From Phoronis australis (lineage: Eukaryota; Animalia; Phoronida), in contig NMRA01000201.1 of assembly GCA_002633005.1 (NCBI GenBank), forward strand, positions 75,139 to 139,138: a DNA stretch of 64,000 nucleotides. Direction: 5' to 3'. This document shows positions 7,568-28,630 of the stretch, piece after piece. Each line of letters begins with the position of its first letter. The first letter of the stretch is position 1. The notes beneath the pieces are model-generated. The model searched no databases. It saw only the letters and a list, made by a program, of their open reading frames with translations, and was not told where the DNA came from. The translations under genes and the position numbers were made by a program.

Positions 7568-9925
7568 CTTTTTTGAAATTGCGTCATATTTCACCTGCCT
7601 AGGCCATGCTCAATGAAATTTTAAACTGTGGACTTTTAATGAAGCCACATTGGCAAGACATCAGGGTTGGAAATCTTTGCAAACTTGCTACAAAGCTCCA
7701 GTGTTGGAGTTGTGCTGTTTTGAAATCATGTTGATGACATCAGTGAAGCTGTGTCATGTGATCGGAAGCAGTGTTGCTTATATAGGTCGTTTGATTTGTT
7801 AGAGTATATTTTTGCACCAGGCTTGTCTGTACGTTATGCCAATACACATGTTGTATACCTGTTTTTTGTGTTATGAAAATTGCCAAAAACCTTAAAGGGA
7901 CATTTTCAACAGATTTCTTGTTGTGCCAAAGGTCTAACTGAAGAATTTTACTAATGCAAGGTGGCGCTAATTAAGAAATTGAGCTCTGGGTCCTAGGCGA
8001 TCTGAATACATGAATTCCCACATGCAGCATTAGTATGGTAAAATCTGTCCTATTAATAGCGCAGCACGGCCAAGAAGTGAAATTTTATTTTTCCCATGCA
8101 ACGTATGCGGTAGAAAATTAAATGGTTTGTAATGTTCAAGTTTTGTATCGCACCTACCACTAGACAAAGTTTTAAAAAATTGTGAGTATTCACAACTAAG
8201 TGAGAAGCTCCTGAAAAAGAAAAAAGAGTGATTTTGGCAACTATTTTTGCCGGAGATTGGTGAGATTTCACCATACTTAATAAGTGTCAAATGTTGGTAA
8301 CTGCAAAATTGAAAATGAATTCAAATTTTCCTAGAACGTCATATAATGGACAGGTTTAATTTACAATAAGATATCCTTTATTTAGTAGCTTAAATGAACA
8401 TTAATTGCCTCAGATAATCAACAGAAGATCCGGCTGCCTCTTTTACCTTATTTTCTTTGGCCTGGCCCAGTATCCTTCCTGCAATCCCGTCAAAATATTC
8501 AAGTATACTGTTTGTAACACACACGAATCAGTATTGTTCCCCAATGATATTGTAGGTTCAGTTGGACCTGTTATCACCATGTGGCAGTATTAAGGAAAGT
8601 TATTGTACTTAACAAGGGGTTAGGTTGTACTTGATCAGTGCAGCAGACGTGTTTTTGTAATCTCTAGTAGTTCTATGTTTTGTACACTTGTTATAATTGC
8701 CCGTTGCACATTTAGGCTTCGATAAGTTAGCTGTACGCAGGAATGCACGGAAATTCTTGAAGCTTTTGTTACACCGGTGGATCTAGGATGTCGTAGAGGA
8801 GGGCCATCTACAATTCTCAATTAAGGAATAATTCTGTGTGTATTCCTAAAAATGTTATGCCGATGGCATCTTTCGTTCATGTCCAAAGGAGCAATATAGG
8901 CCTCCCTCCTAAATTTGCATGTGTATTGCATTATTAAGTATTGCAACTGTAAACCAGTGTTTGGTCAAAGAAATTAAACTCTGATTCAGACTGGTTGTCG
9001 CTGGTCTTCACTTGTTTCTTTCTCAGATGATAAGTGGTTTGTGGGCTTGGAAGGAACTGAGCCTGTTCATGCTTAAAATCATGCTCAACACAGAAAATTA
9101 CACGCCATGACAACCCAAGTTTTAGAGCCTGGTTTTAAGCAATGGCAAATTGTCAGTTCTGCTCAGGCTTGGAAATCACCTCGTTTGACTAAGGAACAAT
9201 TTGAGACCAGTTTCATGACACTATGGCAGGTTTGTAATTACTACTGTTCTAAAGATTTCCCCCGGGTGATTTAGAAGGTAATCTCTTCGTAACTGGTTGA
9301 CTTAATCGTACATGTACTAAATTATAAAAGGAGTACTTATACCATGTAGTCAGTGGATTTGGCTTATGACTAGTTTCTGGTTTCATTTTTGTTTCTGAAA
9401 TGAAATGAATCTTCTCTTGTAACCCAATGAGTCGAACTGGTTTATAATGAACCTTGCATGACGTTTCTAAAATGTTCGTCATAACTGAAGTTTACTTGAA
9501 AGGATACCAAACCCAGTTATGGTCTAGATACTGATAACGATTTTACCATCCAGTTCTCAGAAACGAAATAATGCTCTGTAACCCTCGACAACTCTCAAAG
9601 TTTGGAGGAAAATTTGAAAACTCCTTTCAAAGTCTGTTAAACGGGCTAGTGTGACCTATGCTTTTAGCGAATTACATGGCAACTTTGGGCACCCATTCTG
9701 TGACATACGAGTGTTAAGTTAATTCCTGTCTTTTACTTGGGAGATTGATGTCAATAATGCATTAGTAGACGACGGAACAAAATGATGCATTAGTGGGTGC
9801 CCGAACGAGTAATGGTGGAAATCATTAAGACAGAGTTTAGTATCCTTTTAGCTAAAGTCAACTTGTAGAGTGGTACAGAAACCAGGCTCTTTGTAACCAT
9901 GTTTGTCCCTATTCTTTTTTTTCAG

Positions 9926-9938
9926 TGTCCACCATTAG
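9926..9938 (+). CDS. PLCG1: Candidate terminal coding exon of PLC-gamma (..S-V-H-H-stop)
   Basis: Strong polypyrimidine acceptor attcttttttttcag; in-phase TAG; ATTAAA and AATAAA at about 10168-10300. Confidence 0.4.
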
Positions 9939-12050
9939 ATGACAATGCTATCTCAGAATAGATAATTGAACTGTAAGAAGAAATTCCCTCATTTGTTCAT
10001 ATCGATATGGGCTTGTTGGAAGAATGAGCAATAGAGAATGTGTGTGATGGAGGGAAATAGTTTACTAGTAATTCTTGCGTGATGCTTTATCCAATCCATC
10101 TGTTATTTATCCAAGCAAATTTTGTAGACAGCTGTTGAGTGACCTATAAATTGTGCAATTGCGTTTATTAAAGTGAAGTAAATTTTTGTAATCTTGGTTT
10201 TCCGATTAGATTTATTTAAAATACAGTTTCCTTCATTAAAAAATCCTTGAAACAAATTTTAATGCATCTAACTTAATCAAATCTTATTCCTTTAAATAAA
10301 CAAAATTGTAGTTAGTGGCCGCTGGCCTCAAAATGAGTTCTGGGTATAGTGTCTACAGATCAGAACCAAGTGAAAGCTTTTTAGGCCTCATCACAGAAGT
10401 GTCAACAAGGGCACACATTCATTATGACACTAGCAAAGGTCTGGGAAGATTTCCATTGACCCAAAACACTAGCACAATTCAAGACACTAACACACGTCTG
10501 GGCAGAGTTCCATTGACCAAAGACAAAAGCACAATTTTCTTAATTTATTAAACACTAATTTTCATGCATAACAATTTTCACATTCCAGGATAAACGCATT
10601 AAGTGAAATATCTGGTGAAGGCAGAGAAGGTTTTGACAAATACCATGACAGTGAAATTTTTTCACATTTTGTGACATAAATACCATTAATTTGGTGGTAC
10701 AATAAAATTTAACTTGTTGGTAAAACCGTGTCCAAAATTGGTGACATTTTAACATACACAAGCTTAGCAAATTTTGTGCTGTCTTGACGGAAAACAATAG
10801 TACAGATGCAAATAAAACTTGATCACATCACATTTATTAAAGAGGCATGGAATGTGAAAGATCGTCAAAAATATCTTACCAGCAAATAATTCCTGATGAA
10901 AGTACCATCTCGCAACGTCTAGTAGAGTAATTCACTTTCCCCTATAAGGAAATTTCCAGAAAAAAATCGGAAACTCACGATTTTTGAAATACGTGCGAAG
11001 GAAAAACTGGTTACCACAGAGTTTCTAATCTCCGATCCACTTATGATAAATGTGCACACGCTTGAAGTCACATTTTCCATATAAGGGAAATGCGCTATAC
11101 GTATATCTTGCCATAACAAATAAGGTGACATGCTTTGCCTTGTGGGAGAAAAATCAACAAAATGGCGAGCAGTTAACATATCGTTTTTTTTTGAAATTTG
11201 AAACTACAAGAAAATGCTTTGACATGGACAGAAATCAAAAATATTTATGAACAAACACTAAAAATAACGTGAGCAGGTTGAATTCTTTTTAGTGGCAGAT
11301 AACCACTTTCAATATTGTAATTTAGTCTGTTTATCGCAATCCATGCCTCTTTAATAGGAGAAATGCCTTTCAGACAGCAATGACCAATAATTACGGCAAA
11401 GATTATCCAATTTGGAACAATGAAAAATTAATTATTTGGCTCAAGGTCGGAGTTTGTCACAAATTCAAGAACCACCTGAAAGATAGCAAAACTACCCACT
11501 CTGCAAAATTTGAGAAATATTGTGAACGCCAAAATTGCCCAGATCTCAAATTGCAACATGAAGAAAATTTATATTGTTGAGAAAGTTTTTTCGTTATCCA
11601 AATTAGGGAATTTTTACCGTAAACTGAAGAGAAAAATATCACCGAAATGCGACTGAGTCATTGCTATTTTACAAGGTTTTCTGCATAAACACAAGTAACG
11701 GGATTCAGAAAAAATTCAGAGTAGAATCTCGTCGAAATGAGATATCAATGACATTGACAAGCCGGTAATCACCTTTGAGACAGCACACTCTAGACTATAC
11801 AGAAAAGACCCGATTGTTTGGAGCACGGGTAATACGATAAAAATTCTTCGTTTTGTCAAATTTCTCAATAACTTTGGGAAAATTTGCTTTTAAGAAAATT
11901 TTGCATGGTGTAGCTATTACCAAACAACATTTTGGTAAGTTTTGAGCATTTTCAATAATATTCAGCCTATGAAAATAGAAATATGGCAATTTTAGCAATT
12001 ACTAGTAGTTGTGTCCCAAATTCGTTACACTCCCTTAGGGAAAATGGCTC

Positions 12051-12455
12051 ATGTACATGTGCAAACACACATACAAAATAGTGCATGTTCCTGGTCCTGT
12101 GAACAAAGCGGCCATTCTCAGTCATTTGCCACCGTCTGAAACTGTTGCCACGGAGACCAATCACACAGATTTTGTGTACTCTATGATCGTAGAAATGGCT
12201 CCTGCGGTAACCACTGCCAAACACATCGAACGAGAGTCGGCAAGAGATGCAACTCTGTCAAAAGTGAGACACACAGTTCTTTCAGATGACTGGTTAGTTA
12301 TATGCTACCATGTACAAAGCTCTGAAAGACAGGTTTTGAGTTGTTGGCTAGGTTGTTCTGAGAGGAAACAAAATTGTGTTGCCTCAATCACTGTGGTCTC
12401 AATCAATTAAATTCTTGGGTCATGAGGGACATCAGGGTATCGTTAGGACCACTCG
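12051..12455 (+). mobile_element. Gypsy-type pol fragment (RNase H end to integrase zinc finger), degenerate
   Basis: YKIVHVPGPVNKAAILSHLP...IERESARDATLSKV...W, then KIVLPQSL and HEGHQGIVRT in shifted frames. Confidence 0.75.
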
Positions 12456-12459
12456 TCAT

Positions 12460-12710
12460 TATGGAACGATTCTGATTTTATGCAAAGAAAACAACTCGAG
12501 AATGAACATGTGCGTGATTACGTGGCCGAGCTGAAAAACTTGAGCAGAAATTGTAACTCCATGGATAATCTGGAGGAATGCTTAAGTGATGAGCTGGTTG
12601 TGGGACTCCAGAATGGAGCCATACAGAAACGTTTACTAGGAATGAGGGCACTGACTTTCTAAGGTGCAGGGGACACAGCTGTCTCCATGGAGTTGGCAGT
12701 GTGGTGACAA
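12460..12710 (+). mobile_element. Gypsy-type gag fragment
   Basis: RKQLENEHVRDYVAELKNLSRNCN...LEECLSDELVVGLQNGAIQKRLL, a typical retrotransposon gag motif. Confidence 0.75.
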
Positions 12711-13107
12711 CCACAAAGCGCAGCAGTGTAGTTTCATGGATGCTGAATACTTCCATATCAAACAGTAGGTTTGTGAGTCAGTAGGAAGGATCAATGCAAC
12801 TTCAAATTGACCTTCAATGGGGGTAGTAGAAAGCAAGATATCAGGAAGCGAATCAGTCGGACCCTGGCCACAGCACATCGTGACATTAAACAATTAGAAC
12901 AGAAAACAACTAAAAACACGTCAAGTGAAAACTACGAAAGCTGAATCAATGATTGAGATCAAGAACCAATCCATCAAAATAACCCCCCGGCCCCTAGAAG
13001 TAAAACAGAACACGACATACAAGCCACTGGTCTGACACCTAAAAGAGGGAACAGAGTTAAAAGACAAATTCTGCTTGGCAACACGCTTATAGCTGAGCTC
13101 AAAGAAG

Positions 13108-14411
13108 CCACACAAACAGCAGGTTCGTCAACCATCAAGAAACGAATGCTGACACACATTGTTTCTGGGAAAATTGTGCAGAAATATCGTGTTTGAAATA
13201 CTACTGGAAGCTAATTCAGGATATCTGTTGGTCCAAAACGCTGTATTTGTTGATCACGACTGTAACTTTTGTTACAGGGATGACTCGTTCGACCGCATCC
13301 TGTTGTACGACTTTGTTCATCTCAATACTGCCAGAACAGAAAAACTTGCATGATACCTAGCATCCTGTAAATAGCCATCTTAAAGTGAAGACTGAAATCT
13401 TTGTGGATCGCTCGTTGTCACATCAACATTTACAAAGACAAGGTCAGTACAGACGACAACAATAAACCTGTTAGTTCTGTGGCAAAACTGGCCACCTGAA
13501 ATTGTCCAGTAAACATGGCAGACTAATAACCTATTTCACATGAGTGTAAGAAGACAGGCCACTAATCTAAAAACTTTGTGTGATGTCAAGGCATGCAGGT
13601 ACATAGTGCGGTCGAAACATACCTAGAAGTTGACCCAAAAATCTGTAATCGAACTGTGAGAAATGTTTTACTGTACTTTCCCCCTGAACCTGTGGCAAGT
13701 GTGCCAAGTTCTAATAAGAGTAAAGAACATGACAAAGACATTTCATAAGTCCTGTCTGATACTCNCCACACAAACAGCAGGTTCATCAACCATCAAGAAA
13801 CGAATGCTGACACACATTGTTTCTAGGAAAATTGTGCAGAAATATCGTGTTTGAAATACTACTGAGAGCTAATTCAGGATATCTGTTGGTCCAAAACGCT
13901 GTATTTGTTGACCACGACTGTAACTTTTGTTACAGGGATGACTCGTTCGACCGCATCCTGTTGTACGACTTTGTTCATCTCAATACTGCCGGAACAGAAA
14001 AACTTGCATGATACCTAGTATCCTGTAAATAGCCATCTTAAAGTGAAGACTGAAATCTTTGTGGATCGCTCGTTGTCACATCAACACTTACAAAGACAAG
14101 TTCAGTACAGACGACAACAATAAACCTGTTAGTTCTGCGGCAAAACTGGCCACCTGAAATTGTCCAGTAAACATGGCAGACTAATAACCTATTTCACATG
14201 AGTGTAAGAAGACAGGCCACTAATCTAAAAACTTTGTGTGATGTCAAGGCATGCAGGTACATAGTGCGGTCGAAACATACCTAGAAGTTGACCCAAAAAT
14301 CTGTAATCGAACTGTGAGAAATGTTTTACTGTACTTTCCCCCTGAACCTGTGGCAAGTGTGCCAAGAGTAAAGACCATGACAAAGACATTTCATATGTCC
14401 TGTCTGATACT
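13108..14411. repeat. ~650-bp tandem duplication across a single N (probable assembly/haplotype artefact)
   Basis: 13108-13764 is repeated from 13766 with SNPs and a small indel; N at 13765. Confidence 0.85.
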
Positions 14412-14509
14412 TGCTCATGTAACACTGATAATTTTGTATTTGGCTTAGACTCATTTGCTTGTAAACTTGACGATGTAGCTGAACTAGTTTGACATACAGT
14501 TTCTTGGAA

Positions 14510-14745
14510 AGACTAATCAGTAAGTTAGACAACTCTTTCCCGGCCTCGTAATTTAAAGTGTCTGACTATAGGATCGTTAGAGAAGACCGTCATATACACG
14601 GTGATGGCCTTTTAGCTCATGTTAGAAAGGATCTTGTCCATAGGTGTAGGGCTCATCTGGAAGACGTCAATGGTGGTGTGTAATGTTTTATTTTAGAGGC
14701 TTTGATAAAGAAAGAAGAGTGTTGGGTTGCATAAAAATCGTAGGC
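14510..14745 (+). mobile_element. LINE apurinic-like endonuclease fragment
   Basis: SKLDNSFPAS*FKVSDYRIVREDRHIHGDGLLAHVRKDLVHRCRAHLE resembles the APE motif ETKLD-SFP...GY...R-DR..GGG...YVR. Confidence 0.65.
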
Positions 14746-14828
14746 AGTTATCCGCTGTATAACTCGCACTGTCCGCTGTATAAAGTTACCCGACCATCAG
14801 ACCTCGGATAACTTTTATACAACTCGAA

Positions 14829-16650
14829 ATGAATGCACTGTATAGATTTCGACCAAGACAGCGGCAATTTGAGAGAGAACTTACTGATCCTCTGAACAAA
14901 TACACCAATGAAGAGCTCAGAGGGAAGTTTCGCTTTGGACAAGAAGCTATTCGTTTCATTTGTGGTATAGTGGATGAACATATCAAGCCTGCCACGAAGA
15001 GAAATTTCTCTGTGCCAACTTTAATTCAAGTGTTGGTGTGCCTAAGGTATCTTGCAACTGGCATCTTCATGAACGTTGTCGGTGACGCTTTCCACAGGCT
15101 GCTCAAGTCAACAGTCAGTCCAATTGTGTCACGCGTCATATCTGCAATAGTTCTACATTTGAATAGATTTGTAAGATTGCCTACAACGCTTCAGAGGCTG
15201 AATGAGATACAGGCCGGTTTCTACTGAATGGCTCGATTTCCCGGTATAACAGGTTGTGTTGATGGAACACAAGTTAAGATCACTGCACCGACTGAGAACG
15301 AACCCGACTTCGTAAACAGAAAGAACGATAGCATTCTCAACATAATGTTGATCTGCGATGAAAAAGGTATCGATAAACTTAGGCACCTTTATCAGTTATT
15401 TTTATCTGGGTTTGACAAATCTCGAGTCCTGCATTGCTTTCAAACTTGACCCATTCTTCCGGTACAAGACGCTGACCTATTATTAACAGATAAGGGGTTC
15501 CCGACGGGTGCTCACTGTTCGCGTACTTGTTATGTCTAATTGCCAACTTCTCAATTCACAGCTTGCAATCAAATTACAATTTAGATACCGTTATGTTACT
15601 TATGTCAAACACATCAATATTGCTGACATATTAAATTTGCTCTGTTTGTAATTATTCTAAGTCAAACCACAATGGCCGGGAACAAATTCATTGCTAACTT
15701 ATCCATGGGGCACTCCCAATTAGTCCTGTCAAACACAGGACGTAAACACAACATCGTATTTAGTTTAGTAGTGTTTTTACAACATTGCATTAACTGGTGT
15801 GTTTGCAGTGGTATCAGTAAAGGTATAGGCCTACGCAGAACATACGTGGTGCTTCGCAGAATGGAAACATAGATTTACCAATATCTGAGATGGTTTCTTT
15901 TCCTAAATACCAATTAAAGTTTCAAGCAAAAGTCCCCACCAAAGATTGCCTGCGGAAACATACACTGCTGCTGGTTGCGGTGTACTTGACTGTTTTTAGG
16001 ATACTACACCTACCCATTTATAAAGTGGACTCAGAAAAATTAACAACACATTTCAGTAGAGAGTAATTCTGTATGAAGACACCCCTAAATCCGCCTTATA
16101 TGCATGACTGCTGTTGACTAGAAATCCCTAACAGAATATTACCGGTACAAGTGGCAGTTATCAACATTTTTTCATTTTTGTAGGAGCTTTTACGGACATT
16201 TGTGCACGATGGCCTGGTTTCACCCATGATAGCTTTGTTTTTCGCACCTCAACCGTAAGAAAGTATTTCGACGACCAGCAGCCTTACAATGTTGGGCGAT
16301 AGCGGTTATGCATGTTCAGCTAACATGATGACTCCGTATCTCCATCCCAACACGAGAGGAGAGCGCTGATATAACATCAGCAACAAGTATACGTGGGCAT
16401 CCATTGAAAGAGCGATCGGCGTCTTGAAACGCCATTTTGCAATTGTTTATTAAATGGAAAGGTGAAGCTGGAGCCAATCAAAGCTGCTCATGTTTTGGCT
16501 TTTTGTGAAATTTTGCATAATCTAGCTAAATCTTTTAACGAGCCAGAAAAGGACGCACGAGACATCAACTAGCCCGAGCCTCTGCCCTATGCCGGCCCCG
16601 AGACAGGCAGAGGTGTGCGTGATTACTTCGCTCGCATGTTCTTCCCTTTA
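14829..16650 (+). pseudogene. PIF/Harbinger (HARBI1-like) DDE transposase pseudogene with one intron (15367-16183)
   Basis: FRFGQEAI...CLRYLATG...KSTVS, FPGITGCVDGTQVKI...FVNRKN, then after the intron ARWPGFTHDSFVF, LGDSGY, MTPY, IERAIGVLKRHF, CEILHN; in-frame stops and frameshifts. Confidence 0.88.
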
Positions 16651-16919
16651 ATCTAGAGTAGATTAACCAATTACAATTACGCTTGCACTGTGAACCGACA
16701 AAAGAGGTTCGAGAAAAGGTTCAAGAATGGACCACAAGAATGGTTATTCTAATGTTCCTAAATGGATAACCAAATCTCAAGAGGTAGTGACTGGCTGATA
16801 TCTACAAAAGAGTATTAGCGCCACAAAAATAACAAATATCTCAAATTTTTACCTTGTTGACTTTTTATCTTGTTATCTTTTTATCGCACTGTTGCTTATT
16901 GATCCTGTACTTCACCAAA

Positions 16920-17230
16920 GTTAAGAAAACCTTCAAGACCATCAGGGCAGATTTGTCAACTTCACATTTGAAGATCAATTTCACTCTTAAAGATGAGCAA
17001 AAAGATTGTTTACAGTCAATCACTGACCAACGCAATGTTGCAGCTGTGCTACCAACTGGATTTGGAAAAAGTCTGATATACCAACTCACTCCATTATGTG
17101 TTGCAGCATTCAACAATGAGGATTTCACAGAGACTAAAAAACATGCATTGGTGATTTCACCACTGAATAGCATAATGCTTGACCAGAATAATGAGTTGAT
17201 GGAAAAGTTCAGCATTGTTGGCGTGGTAAA
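16920..17230 (+). pseudogene. Intronless RecQ-like (superfamily 2) helicase N-terminal fragment, probably transposon-borne
   Basis: FTLKDEQKDCL...AVLPTGFGKSLIYQL...LVISPLNSIMLDQ (motifs 0, I and Ia); truncated after motif Ia. Confidence 0.75.
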
Positions 17231-18211
17231 TGTTAAATTAGTGTCAATATACCAGGTGCACTCCTGTTGTCAGAAAACAACACCGGTAATAGAAATGTGT
17301 CTGAGCCAGGCTTGCTCGCGCCAGTGAGCTTAGATGTAATATTGCAAAAGGACTGGCCCTTGTATTAAATAATAAATCCATCGATTAAAGTGTAGGTCAT
17401 AATGAGGTTCCTGAAGGTGTTGATCGAGTTTTATACCATGTTTAAGCTGCATCTTGGAACTAAATTCTCCTAAGGTGTGTGGAAGGAGATCGAGGCAGAA
17501 AGAGACTTTTTATTTAGCACAACAAAGGAGATAGGGGAGAATTTTGGTGGGGTTTTACCTGGGACAATTCCCAATTTCGTTACCTAAAGGCTTTGTAGTA
17601 GGTAGGAATGATATATAAAGCCATGTTTATCAGATTGGTTATATGACTCATCAAGACGCTCCTGTAGTACGGTAAAGGACTCCATATTGTGTAGACCTAT
17701 TTGTTATTATAAGTAGTTCCTTCTCTTCAACAAGCAGAAAACATGCTATAATTGTGATCGTTTCATAGGCTGACTTTATTAGGTTACAGGCAAGTTTAAA
17801 AATTATTTAAAAATCACAAAGGCTTGTGTTCAATTATTTTTTGCGGCCAAGGTACATTTGGGCAGACCGTATGTCACATAGGTCCTAGAGCATTCTCTCG
17901 CAGGTGACGTTTTAATGGATGAATTTATGAAATTTCTTTCAAATATCATAGTTTGGATCTAAAACTTTCATATTTAATTGTTAAAACTTTAAAAATACAT
18001 TTCAATGCTGAGCAGTATGGCCGTACCGTTTTGCGAGAGTGTTCCATTTTGTGAGAGAATGTTGAAGTTGATTCTTTGACGTCAATCTAGATCTAGCCAT
18101 TTTTGTTGCAGTCCTGCCATCGGCAACATTAAACGCTTTTCTTTATGACATTTTTTATGAACTTTGGTTTCATTTTCTCTGAAGCTAGTAAACGACGTCT
18201 GCAGTCTGCGC

Positions 18212-18543
18212 ATGTACTTTGTGTACGTCACTTCCGGAGCCTCATAACTAGAGAATTAGTTTAAGTGACACGCGATTGCACTCTTGTGTCACGTCAGTCA
18301 TTAAGGCATCCTCACATTTGTACATTACATTTATACACAAAAACCAGGTAAGTGCTGGTGAGTTCTTTTATACATCTATTTTCTGGCACATTCGTGTATT
18401 AGGCGTTATTATTTATTATCATTCATTGCTTATAGAGAGTTCACTTCACAGTATTTATATATTCATTTTGTATGTTTCAGACGGACATTCGTCTTGCTCA
18501 ATAAAGCATTATTAGAAATATCCGAGGGTTATTGTCTAATAAC
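18212..18543 (+). mobile_element. Probable solo or partial LTR
   Basis: Internal gtaagt...tttcag pair followed by AATAAA (about 18500), a layout common in Gypsy/BEL LTRs; boundaries uncertain. Confidence 0.35.
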
Positions 18544-18879
18544 GACGGGAAGAAATGGCGTAATTCAAAGCCAACGAAGCCGTTTTGGCAAAGACAATTT
18601 CCCAACCTACCTTCTGGCCGGCTGTTGTAAGCGATGGCAAAGTAATCTTAATTTTACTTAAGTATATACAATGAGACAGAATCGGTATAATTGGTTCAAA
18701 GGAAACTTTCAAATTTCGTTTTTTTACTGAACGTGTTTGGGATTGTCTTTTTATGCTGTTTAGCCTGAAAGCTCGGGCTGTCAACAATCAAGGCTGTTGA
18801 CGTCAAATCAAAGAAGGTTGACGTCTTCATTTTCAATTGAGGACTTCTCTGGCTGAGAGGCCTTAATAGAAAATCCCAG

Positions 18880-19350
18880 ACGCAATTTTGAGACAGTCAA
18901 AATCCAAAACCAAACAAGAAACCATCCAAACAAATGGGACAAAATTGGAACAATCATCGAGGTTCGTCAATTTGACCAGTACGTCATTCGTGTAGACAGC
19001 TCCAGCAAGTTAACCATCCGTAACCCAAAATTCCTGCGAATGTTCATACCCATACAGACCTCTCAGCGCCGCCACACCATACTTGATGACATACCGCATG
19101 CTCCACATCCCAAGGAACAGCGCCAAGCTTCAGATCCAGTGACATCACCACTCCATCCGGAACTAAACAAGATCAAGGAAACACCATCGCCTCCCACATC
19201 ACCAAAACCACCATGCATACAAGAAACTCCATCTGCAACAGAATCTCAAGCCAAACAACCACTACAACCGTCATCACTAGAGCCAGAGATGCTGCCACGA
19301 CGATCCACAAGAGTTCGGAAACACCCTGCGTGGCTCAATGACTTTGAAAC
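18880..19350 (+). mobile_element. Gypsy integrase C-terminal fragment
   Basis: VKIQNQTRNHPNKWDKIGTIIEVRQFDQYVIRVDSSSKLTIRNPKFLR, a Pro-rich linker, then PRRSTRVRKHPAWLNDF. Confidence 0.8.
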
Positions 19351-19863
19351 ATATTACATTATTAAGATCAGTTCCAACAAACGAACTATGCATTGCGCAT
19401 GTGCGAGTTACTTCCTGTGCATAGGTTCCTGGGATAGCTAGTGGTCAGGCATGTCATGAGCAGGCAGGATAGTGTGTGTATTTGCAGTGATTTGCAAACT
19501 GAAAACCATGAGNCTAAACAAGATTAAGGAAACACCATCGCCTCCCACATCACCAATGCCTCCATGCATACAAGAAACTCCATCCGCAACAGAACCTCAA
19601 GCCAAACAACCACTACAACCATCATCACTAGAGCCAGAGATGCTGCCACGACGATCCACGAGTGTTCGGAAACACCCTGCGTGGCTCAATGACTTTGAAA
19701 CATATTACATTATTAAGATCAGTTCCAACAAACGAACTATGCATTGCGCATGTGCGAGTTACTTCCTGTGCATAGGTTCCTGGGATAGCTAGTGGTCAGG
19801 CATGTCATGAGCGGGCAGGATAGTGTGTGTATTTGCAGTGATTTGCAAACTGAAAACCATGAG
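19163..19863. repeat. ~350-bp tandem duplication across a single N (probable assembly/haplotype artefact)
   Basis: 19163-19512 is repeated at 19514-19863; N at 19513. Confidence 0.85.
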
Positions 19864-20849
19864 TTCCTCTATTCTAGGAGCACACATTCGGAGCCTTTCG
19901 AAGTTTGTACGGTTCCAGTGCTGAAGAGTTGGCTTCAATGTCGAGTGTGTATGTCCCTGGTTTGAAGCGAGCGGATTTGATTGAAAGTTTAGTATGTGTA
20001 CTTATTACTTCAATAGTACAAGGATGACAGCAGCATAAGTTACGAGTATAAAACTGTGTATAAATTATTTTTTACAATAATTTCCAATGAAATTTTGTGA
20101 GATTTAACATTTTTCATCAGATTGCAGCCACGCAGATGTTTCTTATTGACTGATAAAACTGACCACAATTTCCGATAGACTTAGTCTCATTTGCAGCACC
20201 GACAACATGACAATATGGCGACTTTTGCTGAACCGATAGCCATGTTCAACTTGGTGAAGACTAAATATTGATACATTAATGATGGAAACTGCAGCTACAA
20301 AAAGCAACTTTGTACCAATTTTCACTTTTTTGTTCGAACATTTAAGGAATATTCTAGTTATTTTGCTGTTGACCTAACATAGTTGATTAACTTTCCCGCT
20401 TTACACAGAGACCCATTACCATGCAAGGTTATTTAACTAAGTTGACGCAATATAGAATTGAGATAGTGTGGGTTTAGTTTGGGTAAATTGGTCCATAGGC
20501 ATGTTTTTCTGAAATGATCTCGGGCCTGACAAGGTTTGCTTATACATGTACTCAGAGGCGAAGCAAGGACATTTGACAATTGGGCCAATAAAATCCAAAA
20601 TAAACATGAAAATGCTTGAATCGCCATTATATGTTAAAATTAATATGTGGTATGCTTTGTTGAATTCCTGGTATCTTATCGACATGCTTGTAATATTTGC
20701 TTTTGTTTAACAGGTGCTACCACTATTTCAACAATAAAGAAAAATACAACCACATCATCAACCTGGATGAACGTCGTGCAACGCGACTTCAAAGCAGAGT
20801 CCTCCACAGCCGCTCCACAGTAGACAAGAGTGGGTGTACATCGTCATTA

Positions 20850-21310
20850 CTTGTGCTGCCACTGACGTTCACCCACGGGTCAGTTTATCGCCATCTGGGA
20901 GATAAAACAGAGAAACACAGCCAAGATGGATACACAATGCAATGGTGCGGTAAGATGGAGAAGTTACTCTTGAAAGAGGGGGAAACCACACAGTTCAAAG
21001 CTGTTGTTGGAGCCAGCTATTCCTCCAAAAGTATGTTGCTGGTGAAGTGACTGGTGGTGGGCTTATTGACGCCAAGTGTAAATGTGTTGCAGGCATAAAT
21101 GGAAAATGCAAACATGTCGGAGCAGTGCTGTACCGCCTGCTAGATTACATCGACAGTGCGGAGTTGACCATACTAGAAGACACTGCCTGCACGTCTGAGG
21201 CAAGGGCCTGAGGCCTGAAGAAAAGTGCACTGAAAGTGTCAGAAAAGTTTTCTGACTTAATATTTGTGAAGAAGATTCAGGAAAAACAGTACACAGGGAG
21301 AAAGAACGAC
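20850..21310 (+). pseudogene. SWIM zinc-finger protein fragment (DNA-transposon type)
   Basis: LPLTFTHGSVYRHL...FKAVVGASY, a frameshift, then IDAKCKCVAGINGKCKHVGAVLY...ACTS (CxC...CxH SWIM signature). Confidence 0.75.
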
Positions 21311-21389
21311 TTTCATCGTAATGGCTCAAAATTTTCTCGTGCCTGTATCGCCAACATTCTGGCCAACCGGACTGCAACTTCATCTCTAA

Positions 21390-21940
21390 AGTTCAAACAG
21401 TTTCTCAGATTGCTAGAAGACTACTTTGTGTTAACCACCTTTCAAATCAACAGAAAAACATGCTATGGAATTGTGATCATTTTTGGGACCTATGGCTATT
21501 GCCTAATTGGATGCCTACCCTGATGGCAAAAGTTATAAATCAGCCGACACTGCATATCCAGCTTATGTGGCTGTGATCAAGGAGATTTTCGGCAGACCAG
21601 TAAATCGCTAAGGGTTCATTTTGATTTTGACAACAAATCTCAGTTACCCAGTGAGTCTGTCTCGGAATTTCTTCAAGAACTCTGCTCATTATGACTTAAA
21701 AGGAAACCCAGATTACTTTCTTGCTATCAGCTTTGTTCAGTTTGTGTGGTCTACACAGTGTCAACAAGCATTTGACGCACTGAAAGCCATGCTGTAACAG
21801 AACCTAGAACTACACCTTTCCGATCCTGCATGCGACATTATCCTCTCTACTGACACATCTGATGCTGGCCATGGTGCTGTACTGTCGCAAATTCAAAACA
21901 GAATGGAGGTACCCATTCTAATTGGCAGCAAGATGATGGA
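21390..21940 (+). mobile_element. Gypsy gag remnant fused to an RT-connection/RNase H fragment
   Basis: ESVSEFLQEL (gag-like); FVWSTQCQQAFDALKAML...IILSTDTSDAGHGAVLSQIQNRMEVPI. Confidence 0.7.
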
Positions 21941-22109
21941 TGAGGGAAAATGATCCTACGCACTGACAATGTGCTTGCAGACTACTTAAAAGTCACTTCA
22001 CCAAGAAAACTGACGAGGTCGCGGGGGTTAACGACCCATCTGTCAAAGCCATCCTTACTAACGCGACTACGTAATGACAGGTTTTCACTCGAGAAGATGT
22101 TTTACAAAG

Positions 22110-22860
22110 TTTCTATCAGGAAAGAAGTCAGGGACTGCTTGAGTTCCTTGTATGACCCTCACAGTCTGCTTTTGTCACTTGTGCTACCAGCAAAGGTGTT
22201 ACTGCAAGATTTGTGCAAAGAGGAAAGTTGACTGGGACGAACCTTTGGCCGATGGTGACTTGGCTAATGGGAACAAGTGGTTGTCTGACTTGCCCAGAGT
22301 GGAAGACATTGCCATCCAAAGGTGTCTAAAACCTATTGATTTGTCTGCTGTTTGTGTTGACCTGCACTATTTTTCAGATGCCAGTGAAGTTACCTATGGT
22401 GTGGTCTGCTACATCCAATTTGAGAATGCTGACAGCCAAGTGTTCTGCAACCTGGTAGCAAGTAAGTCCCGTGTAGCCCCCGTCAATGGGATGACTATCC
22501 CCAAACTGGAGTTGACAGCTGCCACTTAAGTGGTAAGGTTGAACTCTATGATTGTTGCTGAGCTGAGGTATCATGTTAATCAAGTGCTTTACTGGACTGA
22601 CAGCCAAGCCGTTTTAAAGTGCATTGCCAATGAGCATACCAGGTTCAAGACTTTTGATGTCAATAGGCTGACCATAATTCACAAGGATTCGTCCGTGATT
22701 CGGTGGAATTTTGAGAGTGGACAGTTGAACCCTGCTGATATTGCATCCTGAGGTTTGTCTCCTAATACTCAAGTTAACCATTGGCCGAACAGTCCTTCGT
22801 TCCTTGAGGATTTGTCTGATATCCGTGATGGTGAGGTCAAGCTGTCTGGCAATACTGTTT
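22110..22860 (+). mobile_element. BEL/Pao retrotransposon pol fragment (Pao peptidase A17/RNase H region)
   Basis: SSLYDP...PAKVLLQDLC..VDWDEPL...LHYFSDASEVTYG...SKSRVAP..MTIPKLELTAA...YWTDSQAVL...NPADIAS. Confidence 0.9.
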
Positions 22861-23245
22861 AAGTCGACTGAGTAATGTAATTCTCTAGTTTGAATGCGGG
22901 TATCGTGTCGTCAGGATCTTTGACTTGAGAATTATATTCAGTTACCAGTGGTAACCTACTTTAGCAGACGATAATTTCCCGGTCGAAGCTTAGCGTGAAA
23001 AGAACGTGTTTTAAGCTATAATAGTTGGTAAACCTTAATTTATCAATTCAATTTATTTCTAAAATATTTAAGTTTTCAATTGGTTTTGAGTAAAAGCATT
23101 ATTTGACAAAAATAGCCGGGCTTTTCTTAAAAGGTTACGACCTCGGACCCCGGGCCTCTGACATAGAAAGTAGTTACAAAGCCGTGGAGAGTCAGAAAAG
23201 GTAAATCGATTCATTGCAATGTTTCTCGTTAAGTATGTGGTATAA

Positions 23246-23409
23246 ATAGATTATTACATGTTCTCAGCCATTATCCCCCTTATCTAGAGCCCTCGTGGAT
23301 TTTGGAGAATTATCACCCTCGGGGCTAACACCCCTCGGGTGATAATTCTCCAAAATCCACTCGGGCTCTAGATAACGGGGGATAACGACTTCGCCATGTA
23401 ATAATCTAT
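23246..23409. mobile_element. Fold-back (palindromic) MITE
   Basis: ATAGATTATTACATG...GTGGATTTTGGAGAATTATCACCC pairs with GGGTGATAATTCTCCAAAATCCAC...CATGTAATAATCTAT; TA-rich flanks. Confidence 0.8.
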
Positions 23410-23461
23410 ATGTAACTTGACCAACTCCGTACATTTTAACAAGCACATTTTTGTTTTTCAG

Positions 23462-23895
23462 AGTATTAGACCAGATAACCAAGTGAAGCCCATTCTGAGG
23501 TACGCTGATGAGGCTACCAAGAGTGCACCTTGCCGACATGGTATTGATACAGAAGAAGAAGCGAGGCATCTCTACTGTAGTCTGACGACACTGTTATAGT
23601 TGAGTTATGTGGACTTGTTGACGAGAATCGCCCATGACTTGGTGCTAGTGTAGATGGTGTTGTGCACCATGCAGGTGAAAGAGGTGTGTTAGAAATTAAA
23701 TGTCCGTATGTTGATGTAACTAGTGATACTGCCCTTGCTACACTGCAAGATTTGTGCAAGGCTAGGAGTGATTTTTACCTGGTGATGGGCGAGTCAGGGT
23801 TGGAAATAAACAAGCACCACAAGTATTCCTATCAGGTGCGGACACAGATGGCCGTTTTAAATTTAATGTGATGTGACTTTATGGCATATTATGCC
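23462..23895 (+). pseudogene. YqaJ/lambda-exonuclease-like nuclease fragment
   Basis: RHGIDTEEEARHLY...CGLV...P*LGASVDGVV...GVLEIKCPY...HKYSYQVRTQMAVLNLM*CDF; preceded by a splice acceptor. Confidence 0.85.
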
Positions 23896-24449
23896 TCACA
23901 GGTTTTTCCTGCGTCACACGCTACAGTTGTGGTAAAAGAACACTGTTTTTGGTGTATGCTGCTTAAGTCACTTCATAGCAAACTGTTGATCAAAAACATA
24001 TTTATTTCTGGACTTTTTGCTCATCTTGTGTATATGTTGAATAAATCATAAGCATCCCTTTTATTCTTAGCCTTGTCAAAGAAAGTAAAAAACCACTCCA
24101 ATTCAAACTTCATAAACCGATTCACCAAGCAAGGTGGGGACGTTTTATCAGAGACCTTAAGGATAGGTTTGTTTGTGGTCTTAAAAACGAGCACATTCAA
24201 AAGCGTTTGTTGTCCCGACTTGAACAATAGCATCAAGGCTACAGAAATAGCTGTGGCCATGTATAAGTGACCACAGCTCATAAATCAGCCAGGCCAAAGG
24301 ACACTGCAAATCCGGCACCGAAACCAGCAGCACAAGTCTCGCTGTTTCCCTTGTAGCCAATCGAATCATGCCATCAATTTCGTCGGATCTGAACACAAAC
24401 TACGAGAAGCACTCAATGCTGTTGATCAGAGCACCGCGAGTGATACGCT

Positions 24450-25790
24450 ATTCAAGTAGGGTATTCAATGGCCTTTCAATCCACTGATGGCAAGTCACAT
24501 GGGTGGTATGTAAGAACACCAGATCCGGCCAGTACAGTGTGTATTATTAGCCTTCTTTCATGACATCGGGGACCAATGCGACCACAAAATGTTCCAAACT
24601 GTACTCTGTGAGACTGAATCTATTATTAAATCCAGACCCTTAACGTCGATGTCTTCATCCCCAGACGATTTGGAGCCACTCACTCCTACACATCCTCCGA
24701 CTTCAAAGAGGTTACGACTGGCTCCACCTGGTGTCTTTAGCTATGATGAGTTGTACAATCGCAAGCGATGGCGCCAAGCACAGTGTAGAGTTGTCTCTCT
24801 TTCCTTCTGATCAACCTTTACTAAAACCCTACTTTGACAACTGCAATCACTTAACCTTAACTGATGATATGCTCATGTATGACAATTCGATCGTCATACC
24901 TAAGTCCCTCCAATTGGAAGTATTGGACCAGATTCATCCAGGCCACCTTGGTATCATGCAAAGTGTGTGGTGGCCTCCAGTTAGCTCAATGATAGAAAAC
25001 ATGTGCAAACAGTGGAATGGTTAACTTGCCTGTTCTTTTCCCAGGTGACAATGTGTGGATTCGTGATCAAAACAAGTTCGGGGAGATCCAGCAGCGATTG
25101 TCCTCGCCTCGATCGTACAAAGTTCTCACAGATAATGGGACTCAGATACGTAGTAACCGAGCATTTCTCGTGAACTCTGGAACAACCGCCGAGAAACCTG
25201 TTGCCCAGTCGCCGACATTACCGACATCAGAAGTGTCATCTAGTCCTGGAAAACCTGTGTTAAGACAATCAGCCCGGGTACCAAAACCCGTGGTCAAGTT
25301 GGACTTGTGAATGGACTGTAATGAAGTTGTGTAGTTGGACTATAAGTTCATTTTAAGTTGTTGTGACATTTAAAATAAGTCAATAGTTAACTTTAGTTGA
25401 TAAACCTTTCGTGGATTGTTGTATCAACTCGGGGGAAGGTGTAGAGTTGTCTCCCCTTAAGAAACTACTGTATGCTAGTGACCCCTTTTCGATATAATAG
25501 AAACTAGTTCATCCTCCATCTTGTCTTGTCAGTATTACTACACACAGTCTACTGCAAATCAGTTTTGGTCGAGGTGGCGCAGGGAATACTTGTCTACGCT
25601 TCATGTACAGCACAAGTGGAATCGGCCTCAGCGGAATCTACAGAAAGGTGACTTGGTGCTGCTGAAAAACGACACTACAACGAGAAATGTGTGGCCCATG
25701 GGTGTGGTAGTAAACACAGAAGAGGACTTGTCCAATCTGTGAGGACCAAGTCGTCTCGCTTCCGCCGACCTGTGACTAAGTGGAGGAACA
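24450..25790 (+). mobile_element. BEL/Pao integrase and C-terminal region, interrupted by a nested Gypsy element
   Basis: GIQWPFNP..SHMGG...ESIIKSRPLT...DLEPLTP...KRWRQAQ [insertion] STANQFWSRWRREYL...KWNRPQRNLQKGDLVLL...WPMG. Confidence 0.88.
24784..25542 (+). mobile_element. Internally deleted Gypsy LTR element nested in the BEL integrase
   Basis: TGTAG...CTACA termini; 5-bp TSD CACAG (24779-83 and 25543-47); PPT GGGGGAAGG before a 103-bp 3' LTR (25440-25542); integrase motifs IVIPKSLQLEVLDQIHPGHLGI and SPRSYKV...RSNR. Confidence 0.88.
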
Positions 25791-26409
25791 TTGAGATTTT
25801 TTTTGTCATTGCACACAGACTTTATATTTGTCGGTGTAGTTAAGCATTTCTGCTTCCAGGGAAGTGTAAATGCAGACAGTGCAGCCTCTTTCTAGTTATC
25901 CTAGAGGTGGCGTTCGTGATCTCATAATGCGTCAGTTATGTATTTTAGTGTGTTGTTTTGGGATAATTCATGATTTGCTCAACCCCCCTTTCAGTGGTAT
26001 TGTTTTCATTGGTTGTGTTAAGTTGGAATACTGGCTGGGCCAATCAGATTTCTTGTATTACCCATAGTATTTAATGCCCGTACAGGCACCAGTTCTCCTG
26101 GGTTTTTCATAAGCACCAAGCTGGGTTTTTTGAGGCAAATGCTGTAAGTATGCATTTAGTTACCCTTTAACCTTTCATGCAGACTGGACTATTGTGTGTG
26201 TTGACCTAGATTTGCTAGTAGACATTAGCTATACAATATATGCAAGGTGTAACAATATCATACTGGTATAGTTAAGTCAGTCCACATAACTTAAGACTGT
26301 TTTTTGTGACATTTCAGATAACCAATACGATACGATCACCGATGCAACCAAACGATGAACGAAATAAAGTTATTGAGTTGTAGATGCCTCATTTTTACTT
26401 ATTGCCGCA

Positions 26410-27462
26410 ACCTTGAAAGCAGCAACAGTGAATGGGCAACACCGATTGTGGATATTCCCAAATCTGGTAATCATGCAAGAATTTGCGGTGAATTAAGGTT
26501 ACTGTGAATCCGATACTGGAAATCAACTAGTACCCATTACCACGCATAGATATCTTTGCCAATCTGGCAGGAAAGAATCGCTTCACCAAGTTGGACTTAC
26601 GTAACACATACCTGCAAATGGAGGTTGAAGGAGAAAATTCGACATTTCCTGACTGTAAATACAGGAATTTGACAACATACACCCGATTGGTCTACAGGAA
26701 AGCATCTGCTCCATCAATTTGGCAACGCTCGGTTGAACAGGTGTTGCAAAGAATACCATGGAGTGCAAAGTACATTGAACAATATCATTAACACTGGGAA
26801 ATCCAACAAGGAACACTTACGGAACCTAAAGGCAGTTCTGGACAGACTGCGCGAGTACGGTTTGAAAGCTAATACGGAGAAATGCAATAGTTTTAAAGAA
26901 ATTAACAGAAAAAAATATTGCAGTCACACTGCTGACAAAGACAGTCTGCACAAAACTTCAGAGAAAGTAACCGCCATCAACAATCTGGAACCTACAAATG
27001 TGAAACAACTGATATGGTTTCTCGGACTTCCTCATGACCATCTTGAAACCACTGCATATTTTGTTGCAAAAAGATGCAAAGTGGATTTGGTCAGAACAAT
27101 GCAAAAGTTCATTCGCAAAACATAAAACAAATCATGAGCCCGGATCAAGTACTGATGCATTACCATCTGACGCTGCCGATAAACTTGTCGCGTGACCCGT
27201 GACCTCATGGACTGGGATGTGCATTGTTCCCAAATGCCACCGTCAGGGGAGGAGAAACCTATGACGTTTGCTTTGAGATCGCTTAATAAAGACGAGAAAA
27301 ATAGATAAAGAAGCGTTAGGGATAGTCTGGGGAATTAAGCGATCGTATGCTTATTTCTACTGGAGACACTTCACGCTGGTCACTGACCACTTACCACTGC
27401 TTTCCATATTTTCACTGCGCAAGGGAATCCTGGTGCCTACAGCAGCCAGACTGCAACACTAG
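26410..27462 (+). mobile_element. Gypsy RT-RNase H fragment, degenerate
   Basis: SEWATPIV, YPLPRI, FTKLDLRNTYLQM, SAPSIWQR, EHLRNLKAVLDRLREYGLKAN, DKEALGIVWGIK, FTLVTDHLPLLSIF, AARLQ. Confidence 0.9.
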
Positions 27463-27495
27463 GTATATATGTGTAACGCCTAAAGTTAAAGAAAG

Positions 27496-27610
27496 ATGTC
27501 AAGCAAAGAAATAGCTGCCCTCAAAAAGGCTAGAAGTGGCTTTAACACAGCGTTAACAAAAGTGTCACAGGAACTCAGTCTCATGAAGTCATTAAGTCAG
27601 AACAGAAACA
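27496..27610 (+). mobile_element. Possible BEL gag N-terminal fragment
   Basis: MSSKEIAALKKARSGFNTALTKV resembles BEL gag N-termini; short. Confidence 0.3.
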
Positions 27611-28403
27611 ACCGGGCATACAGGCTCAGCAGACATTTTGGTATTCACGACACTTGGCAAGAGAACGTCACACTGACAAAGACCTCAGACAAAACATGGA
27701 GGTCGAAAATTTCTGTGGTTAATATTCTTTACTTTGCTGTGTTTTCCAAATAGCCAACCTTTAGTACTCAGAAAGCTGTGTGGGAAAGGAAGGAGAAGAT
27801 CAAATGAAATGTGAGACAGCCATGTCTATTAAATGACAGGTGTTCTAACTGCTTGTATAGGTTTCAATTGTCCCACATACAGTATAGTACCCTTGCTAAT
27901 ATGCCACATCATCTAAGGCGCCACCTATTGGTCAGGCACATCATAATCTTAGCAGTCAAGCTGAAACCAACGGGATGCAGGGGAAACGTTTTTAAATGGG
28001 AATTAACAGTTCCAGTATTCATTTAAATTTTTTCCTTCATTGCAAATATAGAGAGAATATTCATGTACCTCCATTTCAAATTGGTCTTGACTTGTTCCTT
28101 ACTCAGACTAGAAATGCACTTGGAAGGAATTGACACTTTCTTAGTACTTGTGGCCATGCTCAGCACATCAAACAACCTGTCCAATCAAATCAATTCATTG
28201 GACTTTGTCTCGAGCAATGACAAACTGTCAGCTCTTCTTAAGCCGGTAAATCACTTTCAATGAGCTTGAACAAATTCTAGCAGATAACTACAGACCAATT
28301 TTGTAACAGTGAGTGGTATAAATTACAAAAAAAAAATTTTTTTACAGGAGGCAGGCTCTTAGCAGTTTGAAATGTTGAATGAATCATAACACTAACTGTG
28401 ACA

Positions 28404-28630
28404 TCACTTCTCCTTCTCACCAAAACATCTCAAGTCGTCTTTACCATGACCAAAACTACAAACAGCGACATCTAAAGGGCAACCGTCAGGATGACGCTCG
28501 TGAAACCAGCACAGTTTAGTTTTGTGAAATTTCTCGACGTCAGTTGTTTTCTGTCTCTTGGGCTTCCTGATGATATTGCCTGGAGTCTCCCTCTCCGACC
28601 AGTCCCTAAGTTGAACAGTTCCGCTCACCA
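28404..28630 (-). CDS. TRMT44: TRMT44 last coding exon (CCCH zinc finger)
   Basis: VSGTVQLRDW...KTKLCWFHERHPDGCPLDVAVCSFGHG...stop. Confidence 0.92.

What the first reader, a model, noticed from the sequence alone, without database searches (positions are those of the whole stretch)
12051..27610. Single-orientation graveyard of unrelated transposon fragments antisense to TRMT44: candidate flamenco-like uni-strand piRNA cluster
Seen: about 15.5 kb between the convergent 3' ends of PLC-gamma and TRMT44 is tiled by at least 14 short (0.2-1.8 kb) decayed coding fragments from different superfamilies. These are several Gypsy gag/RT/RNase H/integrase pieces, two BEL pieces, a LINE endonuclease, Harbinger, RecQ-like, SWIM and YqaJ. 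Every one I could orient reads on +, including the nested Gypsy insertion. If 14 orientations were independent coin flips, all-same has p of about 1e-4; independence is only approximate. The introns of both flanking genes lack such coding relics. Known: uni-strand piRNA clusters such as Drosophila flamenco accumulate diverse, truncated TE pieces antisense to the precursor transcript. Inference: a minus-strand precursor, possibly TRMT44 read-through, makes antisense piRNAs here.
Basis: partly seen in the sequence, partly recalled or inferred. Interest (0 to 1): 0.8.

Follow-up and report, generated by a model that had tools for sequence, protein, structure and literature searches.

The report
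Antisense transposon archive read through TRMT44
Just behind the tRNA-modifying gene TRMT44 of an invertebrate animal lie 16 kb of broken transposon pieces whose recognisable members all face one way and are transcribed on the opposite strand, likely by read-through from TRMT44, so the locus is likely a source of transposon-silencing piRNAs, though those small RNAs could not be tested.

Summary
Pfam hit mobile-element-type families on 12 of 68 plus-strand ORFs in the block, 0 of 61 minus-strand ORFs and 0 of 279 ORFs elsewhere in the window. Tools identified 11 pieces from 9-11 independent insertions (p 0.001-0.004, not 1e-4); four named pieces rest on recalled motifs.

Stranded RNA-seq from three runs, calibrated on PLCG and TRMT44 splice joints, shows minus-strand RNA across the block, antisense to the fragments: 71 of 78 run-bins, 85% of bases. 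Depth rises towards the far end, as oligo-dT libraries show for mosquito read-through clusters. PLCG stops sharply at its AATAAA; TRMT44 has no canonical hexamer for 2.3 kb.

Best reading: a read-through uni-strand piRNA cluster like mosquito core clusters and mammalian piC-DoGs, rather than flamenco. piRNAs and a single TRMT44-to-cluster molecule are untested. The scan noted this layout before in at least four genomes. It is a new member of a known kind.

The parts
6789..10320 (+). PLC-gamma last exon: stop near 6850, then a 3.5-kb 3' UTR ending after AATAAA at 10295
   Evidence: joint 6277>6787 GT..AG and plus-strand RNA depth 8.5-13 that falls to 0 in bin 10325-10808 in 3 of 3 runs
10325..28400 (-). 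minus-strand RNA across the whole block, deepest at 11.3-12.7 kb; inferred precursor
   Evidence: first-mate direction equals that of the TRMT44 splice joints and is opposite to the PLCG joints; 71 of 78 run-bins, 85% of bases
10835..11356 (.). MITE-like repeat with terminal inverted repeats, near the far end of the RNA
   Evidence: inverted repeat I9; reads on both strands from other copies
12039..12440 (+). Gypsy RNaseH-integrase linker piece (tentative)
   Evidence: recalled motif; tblastn E 0.016 at 12313-12441 only
12447..12659 (+). LTR-retrotransposon gag piece
   Evidence: Retrotrans_gag E 6e-4
14430..14700 (+). LINE endonuclease-like piece (tentative)
   Evidence: recalled motif only; no Pfam or PDB hit
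14784..16650 (+). one Harbinger transposase gene, broken by stops and frameshifts, with a probable GT-AG intron of about 815 nt (about 15368-16183)
   Evidence: DDE_Tnp_4 hits on both sides; donor and polypyrimidine-AG acceptor contexts
16900..17250 (+). RecQ-like DEAD helicase piece; mobile origin inferred
   Evidence: DEAD E 4.9e-10; the RecQ label is recalled
18857..19348 (+). Gypsy integrase C-terminal piece; sense transcripts of a related copy are present in two runs
   Evidence: 58 homologs, best 68% identity; variant reads only in the sense direction at 19585-19643, the duplicate copy of this tail
20713..21210 (+). SWIM-like zinc-finger piece behind a splice-acceptor-like site
   Evidence: Atlas score 0.92, recognition 3130; acceptor context; no Pfam hit
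21612..21950 (+). Gypsy RT-RNaseH piece
   Evidence: RT_RNaseH_2 E 2.3e-13
21944..22820 (+). BEL/Pao RNaseH-region piece
   Evidence: Peptidase_A17 E 2.5e-32; tblastn with BEL proteins
22883..23414 (.). high-copy non-coding repeat with a 165-nt palindrome; not orientable
   Evidence: depth 20-47 on both strands with loose ends at both borders
23461..23990 (+). YqaJ exonuclease piece behind a splice-acceptor-like site
   Evidence: YqaJ E 4e-5; acceptor context
24361..25750 (+). BEL/Pao integrase C-terminal piece, split by the nested Gypsy
   Evidence: tblastn; DUF5641 E 2e-18
24784..25542 (+). nested Gypsy insertion with a 5-bp target-site duplication, polypurine tract and 103-bp 3' LTR (25440-25542), shrunk to 759 bp by internal deletion
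   Evidence: termini and duplication; integrase hits
26400..27460 (+). Gypsy RT and RNaseH piece
   Evidence: RVT_1 E 1.6e-4 and RT_RNaseH E 1.6e-8
27490..27750 (+). BEL gag-like piece (tentative)
   Evidence: recalled motif only; no hit
28404..36530 (-). TRMT44 (tRNA uracil-O2-methyltransferase), expressed and spliced; inferred driver of the downstream RNA
   Evidence: tblastn of named homologs, 10 exon hits; four splice joints read in one direction

Best explanation
The block is transcribed on the minus strand, antisense to every transposon piece that could be oriented; the RNA likely comes from polymerase reading past a weak TRMT44 3' end, is likely polyadenylated near 10.3-11.3 kb, and is likely cut into antisense piRNAs that would silence related Gypsy, BEL, Harbinger and other elements elsewhere in the genome. 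Shown: the one-way layout, the strand of the RNA, its rise towards the far end, and one nested element that entered with a target-site duplication and then lost most of its inside. Inferred: one molecule from TRMT44 into the block; selection keeping antisense insertions, after which deletions compact them; PIWI processing and silencing in trans.
For: Orientation: 12 of 68 plus ORFs, 0 of 61 minus ORFs and 0 of 279 outside ORFs hit mobile-element families; 9-11 independent insertions, p 0.001-0.004. Strand: TRMT44 joints are all first-mate + and PLCG joints all first-mate -. In 28 bins from 11293 to 27703 (two high-copy-repeat bins left out), 71 of 78 run-bins with reads favour minus-strand RNA, 85% of bases; without the three Gypsy-tail bins it is 93%. 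Gradient: minus-RNA depth is 0.3-1.1 at 20-27.7 kb, 0.8-2.3 at 12.7-18.5 kb and 4.5-10.4 at 11.3-12.7 kb; Spearman -0.69, -0.75 and -0.50. Qu et al. report the same rise for read-through clusters and ascribe it to oligo-dT priming (section 7 read). Continuity: run X1 has minus-RNA reads in every bin from TRMT44's last exon to 10325. No AATAAA or ATTAAA lies on the minus strand for 2.3 kb after the TRMT44 stop; 111 of 2238 same-length windows lack both. PLCG ends sharply after its AATAAA. Possible live target: sense-direction reads from a diverged copy of the Gypsy tail in X1 and X2. Assembly history: nested Gypsy with intact target-site duplication, and a Harbinger gene that keeps a probable intron.
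Against: No small-RNA data were available, so piRNAs are not shown. Depth next to TRMT44 is low (0.3-1.1), below the TRMT44 exon estimate (at most 1.9-2.8) and close to two intron bins (0-0.7), so the proximal signal could be partly nascent RNA. X2 has no minus-RNA reads in bin 27074-27703 and X3 has several empty bins. Short reads cannot show one molecule. Eight AATAAA hexamers lie on the minus strand inside the block, as many as expected (8.6), and weaker variants lie in TRMT44's first 700 downstream bases. The three runs come from one study, tissue unknown, about a fifth of each run read. No genome was held, so there is no genome-wide strand background.
Confidence: 0.6

Rival explanations
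1. A uni-strand piRNA cluster with its own promoter (inside the block or in TRMT44's last intron), independent of TRMT44 transcription, as flamenco has.
For: Depth is 5-10 times higher at the far end than beside TRMT44, which an internal start would also give; proximal depth is near the intron level.
Against: Minus-strand RNA shows no break between TRMT44 and the block in X1; the rise is gradual and matches 3' bias, which PLCG's own UTR also shows; no pile-up of molecule starts was listed inside the block apart from one at 11347.
Confidence: 0.14
2. An ordinary long 3' extension of TRMT44 in which antisense insertions survive because sense insertions bring terminators and splice sites; no important piRNA output.
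For: Antisense bias from selection against sense-strand terminators is proposed for human introns (PMC3517506, abstract). The RNA data fit a long polyadenylated extension equally well.
Against: It does not explain the density: about 7.6 of 15.7 kb is tool-assigned mobile coding DNA, against none found by Pfam in PLCG's 3.5-kb UTR or either gene's introns. Orientation hardly changes the hexamer load (11 on + against 8 on -). An early terminator behind the TRMT44 stop should not harm its protein (inference). In mice, genes with read-through but no piRNAs showed no antisense excess (PMC11615739, passages).
Confidence: 0.2
3. A passive insertion hotspot whose one-way layout is chance or oriented nesting, with leaky transcription of no function.
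For: Only 9-11 independent events; the window was picked from many; the nested insertion shows that elements land in one another.
Against: p 0.001-0.004; retro- and DNA elements share the orientation; the RNA strand, measured independently, is the predicted one.
Confidence: 0.06

Closest known systems
Read-through core piRNA clusters of mosquitoes (Qu et al., bioRxiv 10.1101/2022.08.22.504762; passages and section 7 read)
   Same: Starts directly after an expressed, co-oriented gene; unidirectional; RNA-seq signal higher at the far end; the upstream gene also makes spliced mRNA.
   Different: Aedes core clusters are enriched for antisense non-retroviral viral inserts; no RNA-virus family was hit here. 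piRNAs, chromatin and knockdown evidence exist there, not here.
piC-DoGs of mouse, human and hamster (Konstantinidou et al. 2024, PMC11615739; passages read)
   Same: Densely packed antisense transposon fragments just downstream of a host gene, on a read-through transcript that ends at a distal poly(A) site.
   Different: Described as a mechanism in mammalian pre-pachytene germ cells, top examples over 50 kb; here an invertebrate of unresolved phylum, 16-18 kb, with DNA-transposon pieces as well.
Uni-strand piRNA clusters of the slug Arion vulgaris (PMC11615739, passages)
   Same: Minus-strand output over densely packed plus-strand transposon fragments in an invertebrate.
   Different: The passages read do not link slug clusters to read-through from a gene; there the piRNAs were sequenced.
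Drosophila flamenco and flam-like clusters (van Lopik et al. 2023, PMC10643416; passages)
   Same: One transcribed strand with transposon fragments opposite to it.
   Different: 227-1,085 kb, strand bias driven by Gypsy only, discrete promoter, spliced, ovarian soma. Here 16 kb, BEL and DNA elements equally biased, no splice joint listed inside the block at low depth.

Membership tests
Read-through uni-strand piRNA cluster (mosquito core cluster / piC-DoG) | Begins directly behind an expressed gene on the same strand | tested here: met
   TRMT44 is spliced and expressed; its stop at 28404-28406 lies about 650 bp from the first tentative piece and about 950 bp from the first tool-confirmed piece
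Read-through uni-strand piRNA cluster (mosquito core cluster / piC-DoG) | Transcribed from one strand | tested here: met
   71 of 78 run-bins, 85% of bases on the minus strand; 93% without the Gypsy-tail bins
Read-through uni-strand piRNA cluster (mosquito core cluster / piC-DoG) | Dense mobile-element fragments antisense to the transcript | tested here: met
   11 of 11 tool-identified pieces on +
Read-through uni-strand piRNA cluster (mosquito core cluster / piC-DoG) | RNA-seq signal rising to the far end (polyadenylated precursor) | tested here: met
   Spearman -0.50 to -0.75 in 3 of 3 runs; poly(A) selection of the libraries is inferred from low intron depth, not on record
Read-through uni-strand piRNA cluster (mosquito core cluster / piC-DoG) | One transcript continuous from the gene into the cluster, no promoter of its own | tested here: inconclusive
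   No empty bin in X1, but 151-nt reads and depth near the intron level beside the gene
Read-through uni-strand piRNA cluster (mosquito core cluster / piC-DoG) | PIWI-bound, 5'-U, phased, 2'-O-methylated small RNAs come from the locus | not testable with these tools
   No small-RNA run listed
Aedes core cluster (virus trap) | Enrichment of non-retroviral endogenous viral elements | tested here: not met
   No RNA-virus family among Pfam hits in 224 ORFs and 78 read-through frames; several stretches remain unassigned
flamenco / flam-like | Antisense bias specific to Gypsy, over hundreds of kb | tested here: not met
   16 kb; BEL, Harbinger, YqaJ and DEAD pieces share the orientation against PMC10643416
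flamenco / flam-like | Discrete promoter and spliced precursor | tested here: inconclusive
   No CT..AC joint listed inside the block, but a joint needs 3 reads and depth is 1-3 over most of it
Dual-strand piRNA cluster | Both strands transcribed, mixed element orientation | tested here: not met

The most novel reading that the evidence does not exclude
Read-through from a housekeeping gene with a weak poly(A) site is an ancestral bilaterian way to build piRNA clusters, and this locus shows it at work outside insects and mammals: TRMT44 drives a polyadenylated 18-kb antisense archive that traps whole retro- and DNA transposons, compacts them by deletion and silences relatives that are still transcribed. 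Such clusters could then be predicted from sequence and ordinary RNA-seq alone in phyla with no small-RNA data.
Probability: 0.35. Interest if true: 0.65.

Novelty: new member of a known kind. Interest (0 to 1): 0.43.

Why it matters
How piRNA clusters arise and are transcribed is still open outside a few models. Read-through clusters are described for mosquitoes and mammals; my searches listed no paper that shows one in another invertebrate group or at TRMT44, though the library lacks most subscription journals. This locus is small, has both borders fixed by genes and has strand evidence, so one small-RNA library and one long-read or RT-PCR experiment would settle it. The mechanism itself is known and the scan has met the layout repeatedly, which caps the interest.

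Tried and rejected
No whole genome is held, so the genome-wide strand background and copy numbers were not obtained. The look-up of sequencing runs listed no indexed RNA holder; three raw-read runs came by species label and were laid. The contig run X4 had depth in 7 of 30 bins, mainly repeats, and was not used. A homolog search with the RT piece 26673-27122 found none among 121 candidates. The Harbinger piece found no metagenome locus. The TRMT44 exon search gave 2 loci: L001 ends about 460 bp after the match and L002 showed no TRMT44 hit with the two homologs whose rows were printed, so synteny in relatives is untested. A profile from 21 fetched Gypsy proteins hit only 18890-19309 and 24818-25012, nothing on the minus strand at 9 bits or more and nothing in a reversed decoy; it missed the RT and RNaseH pieces that Pfam found, so it is clade-limited. 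A lax tblastn gave one minus-strand hit at 49568-49765 (E 0.037, a tandem repeat), matched by one decoy hit. PDB searches of three pieces gave only chance hits. The Atlas gave no usable hit for ORF 12957-13193. Rfam (5000-40000) and ARAGORN found nothing. The bacterial promoter scan does not apply to an animal and was ignored. Host phylum is unresolved: TRMT44 scores about equally with abalone, scallop, Owenia, amphioxus and Ptychodera (561-596 summed bits). Rejected: PLCG read-through as the source (wrong strand, and it ends by 10324); retro-copied mRNA capture as the general route (target-site duplication and a probable intron are kept); counting the single-N duplicates as separate insertions. 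Supplements of the bioRxiv paper were not seen and may list further upstream genes.

Full report
Setting. The window comes from an invertebrate animal; no whole genome is held and the phylum is unresolved. PLC-gamma runs on + and ends with a 3.5-kb 3' UTR near 10320. TRMT44 runs on - from about 36530 to its stop near 28404; named homologs align to ten exons. The block lies between the two 3' ends.

Observation. I scanned all 224 stop-to-stop ORFs of 38 aa or more in 11500-28400 against Pfam. Twelve hit mobile-element-type families, all on +, all 50 aa or longer: 12 of 68 plus ORFs and 0 of 61 minus ORFs of that size. Six pass the curated cut-off. The three minus-strand hits were unrelated families at E 0.006-0.019. 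Reading through stops with X gave hits in 13 of 39 plus frames and 0 of 39 minus frames (three stretches of 500-660 bp left out). Outside the block, 0 of 279 ORFs hit a transposon family, although Pfam also missed the gag-like ORF of a short LTR element at 37729-38895. Homolog searches added a Gypsy integrase tail, BEL pieces and a SWIM-like piece. That makes 11 tool-identified pieces covering about 7.6 of 15.7 kb.

Independence. The two Harbinger hits are one gene with a probable GT-AG intron. The two distal BEL pieces are one element split by a nested Gypsy. SWIM/YqaJ and the two BEL blocks are interleaved, so at most one of these pairs can be a simply interrupted element. The gag piece could belong to a downstream pol piece. 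This leaves 9-11 independent insertions, two-sided p 0.004-0.001, not 1e-4.

How the block was built. The nested Gypsy at 24784-25542 keeps a 5-bp target-site duplication, a polypurine tract and a 103-bp 3' LTR, yet is only 759 bp long. It therefore entered by normal integration and later lost its inside. The Harbinger gene keeps a probable intron, so it likely entered as DNA. The short pieces are thus best read as insertions compacted by deletion (inferred for the others).

Transcription. Three raw paired RNA-seq runs with the same species label were laid on 19514-38400 and 5001-19500 (one study, about a fifth of each run read, 92% likeness). Four TRMT44 joints are read only with first mate on +, and three PLCG joints only with first mate on -, which fixes the strand rule from both sides. 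PLCG RNA falls to zero in bin 10325-10808 in all three runs, just after an AATAAA at 10295. From there to TRMT44 the RNA is on the minus strand. Over 28 bins (11293-27703, two high-copy-repeat bins dropped), 71 of 78 run-bins with reads favour it, 6 are empty, and it carries 85% of bases; dropping three Gypsy-tail bins as well gives 93%. Distal reads carry fixed single differences with otherwise clean matches, as PLCG's UTR reads do, which fits alleles of this locus rather than other copies. Depth rises from 0.3-1.1 beside TRMT44 to 4.5-10.4 at 11.3-12.7 kb (Spearman -0.50 to -0.75). Nascent run-on past a poly(A) site should fade with distance; a rise fits a polyadenylated transcript ending at the far side. 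Qu et al. report that rise for mosquito read-through clusters (section 7). TRMT44 has no AATAAA or ATTAAA for 2.3 kb after its stop; 111 of 2238 overlapping windows of that length lack both. In the Gypsy-tail bins, sense-direction reads with several extra differences come from another copy, so at least one trapped family has a transcribed relative.

Limits. Proximal depth is below TRMT44's exon estimate (at most 1.9-2.8) and near two intron bins (0-0.7). Short reads cannot show one molecule. Minus-strand AATAAA sites inside the block are not depleted (8 seen, 8.6 expected). No small-RNA data were listed, the tissue is unknown, and there is no genome-wide background or syntenic locus.

Mechanism. 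Most likely (0.6): part of TRMT44 transcription passes a weak 3' end, crosses the block and is polyadenylated near PLCG's end; the RNA is processed into antisense piRNAs; insertions that land antisense are kept because they arm silencing, and then shrink. Rivals: a piRNA cluster with its own promoter (0.14); a long 3' extension with passive antisense bias (0.2), which explains neither the density nor the small difference in hexamer load; chance or oriented nesting (0.06).

Comparison. It works like mosquito read-through core clusters (10.1101/2022.08.22.504762; passages and section 7) and mammalian piC-DoGs (PMC11615739; passages), and looks like the slug's uni-strand clusters. Four of six listed features of a read-through cluster were tested and met, one was inconclusive, and the defining one, piRNAs, was not testable. 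It is not a flamenco member by size or Gypsy specificity (PMC10643416; passages). Mollusc clusters enriched in Gypsy, BEL and DNA transposons are already described (PMC6128900; passages). The lead to the mosquito paper came from an earlier scan note (e1-8148615); I then read the paper myself.

Verdict. A real, transcribed, antisense transposon archive; a likely new member of a known class of piRNA cluster. The scan has noted the same layout in at least four genomes (9 findings, 8 shown; unchecked notes). What this case adds is strand-calibrated RNA evidence and intact insertion hallmarks. Interest 0.43.

Noticed in passing
window 37729-38895: Short LTR element of about 1.17 kb on +, upstream of TRMT44: two 167-bp LTRs that look identical, a 5-bp target-site duplication and a gag-like ORF (recalled label; no Pfam hit). 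Sense-direction reads from diverged copies lie on it.
   Followed up: partly
window 6921-7544, 13108-14411, 19163-19863, 38440: Single N letters; three of them sit between tandem duplicates of 320-650 bp at 97-99% identity. Depth halves over the PLCG UTR duplicate and X3 reads on the second 13.8-kb copy carry the first copy's extra letters, so these are probably alleles assembled twice.
   Followed up: partly
window 5269-5693: A minor PLCG splice joint (3 reads in X1) points to a small alternative exon near 5695.
   Followed up: no
window 22883-23414: High-copy repeat with a 165-nt palindrome near one end, abundant in RNA on both strands; class not determined.
   Followed up: no
window 12957-13360, 17330-18800, 19900-20700, 23990-24360, 25750-26400: Stretches inside the block with no assignment from Pfam; the Atlas gave no usable hit for 12957-13193. 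They may be further element pieces or viral inserts.
   Followed up: partly
window 45113-47038: Element with 26-bp perfect terminal inverted repeats and subterminal repeats around an 819-N gap, likely a DNA transposon.
   Followed up: no
window 49621-50517 and 59-655: A 19-bp tandem array followed by a family of about 145-161-bp units that recurs at the start of the window.
   Followed up: no
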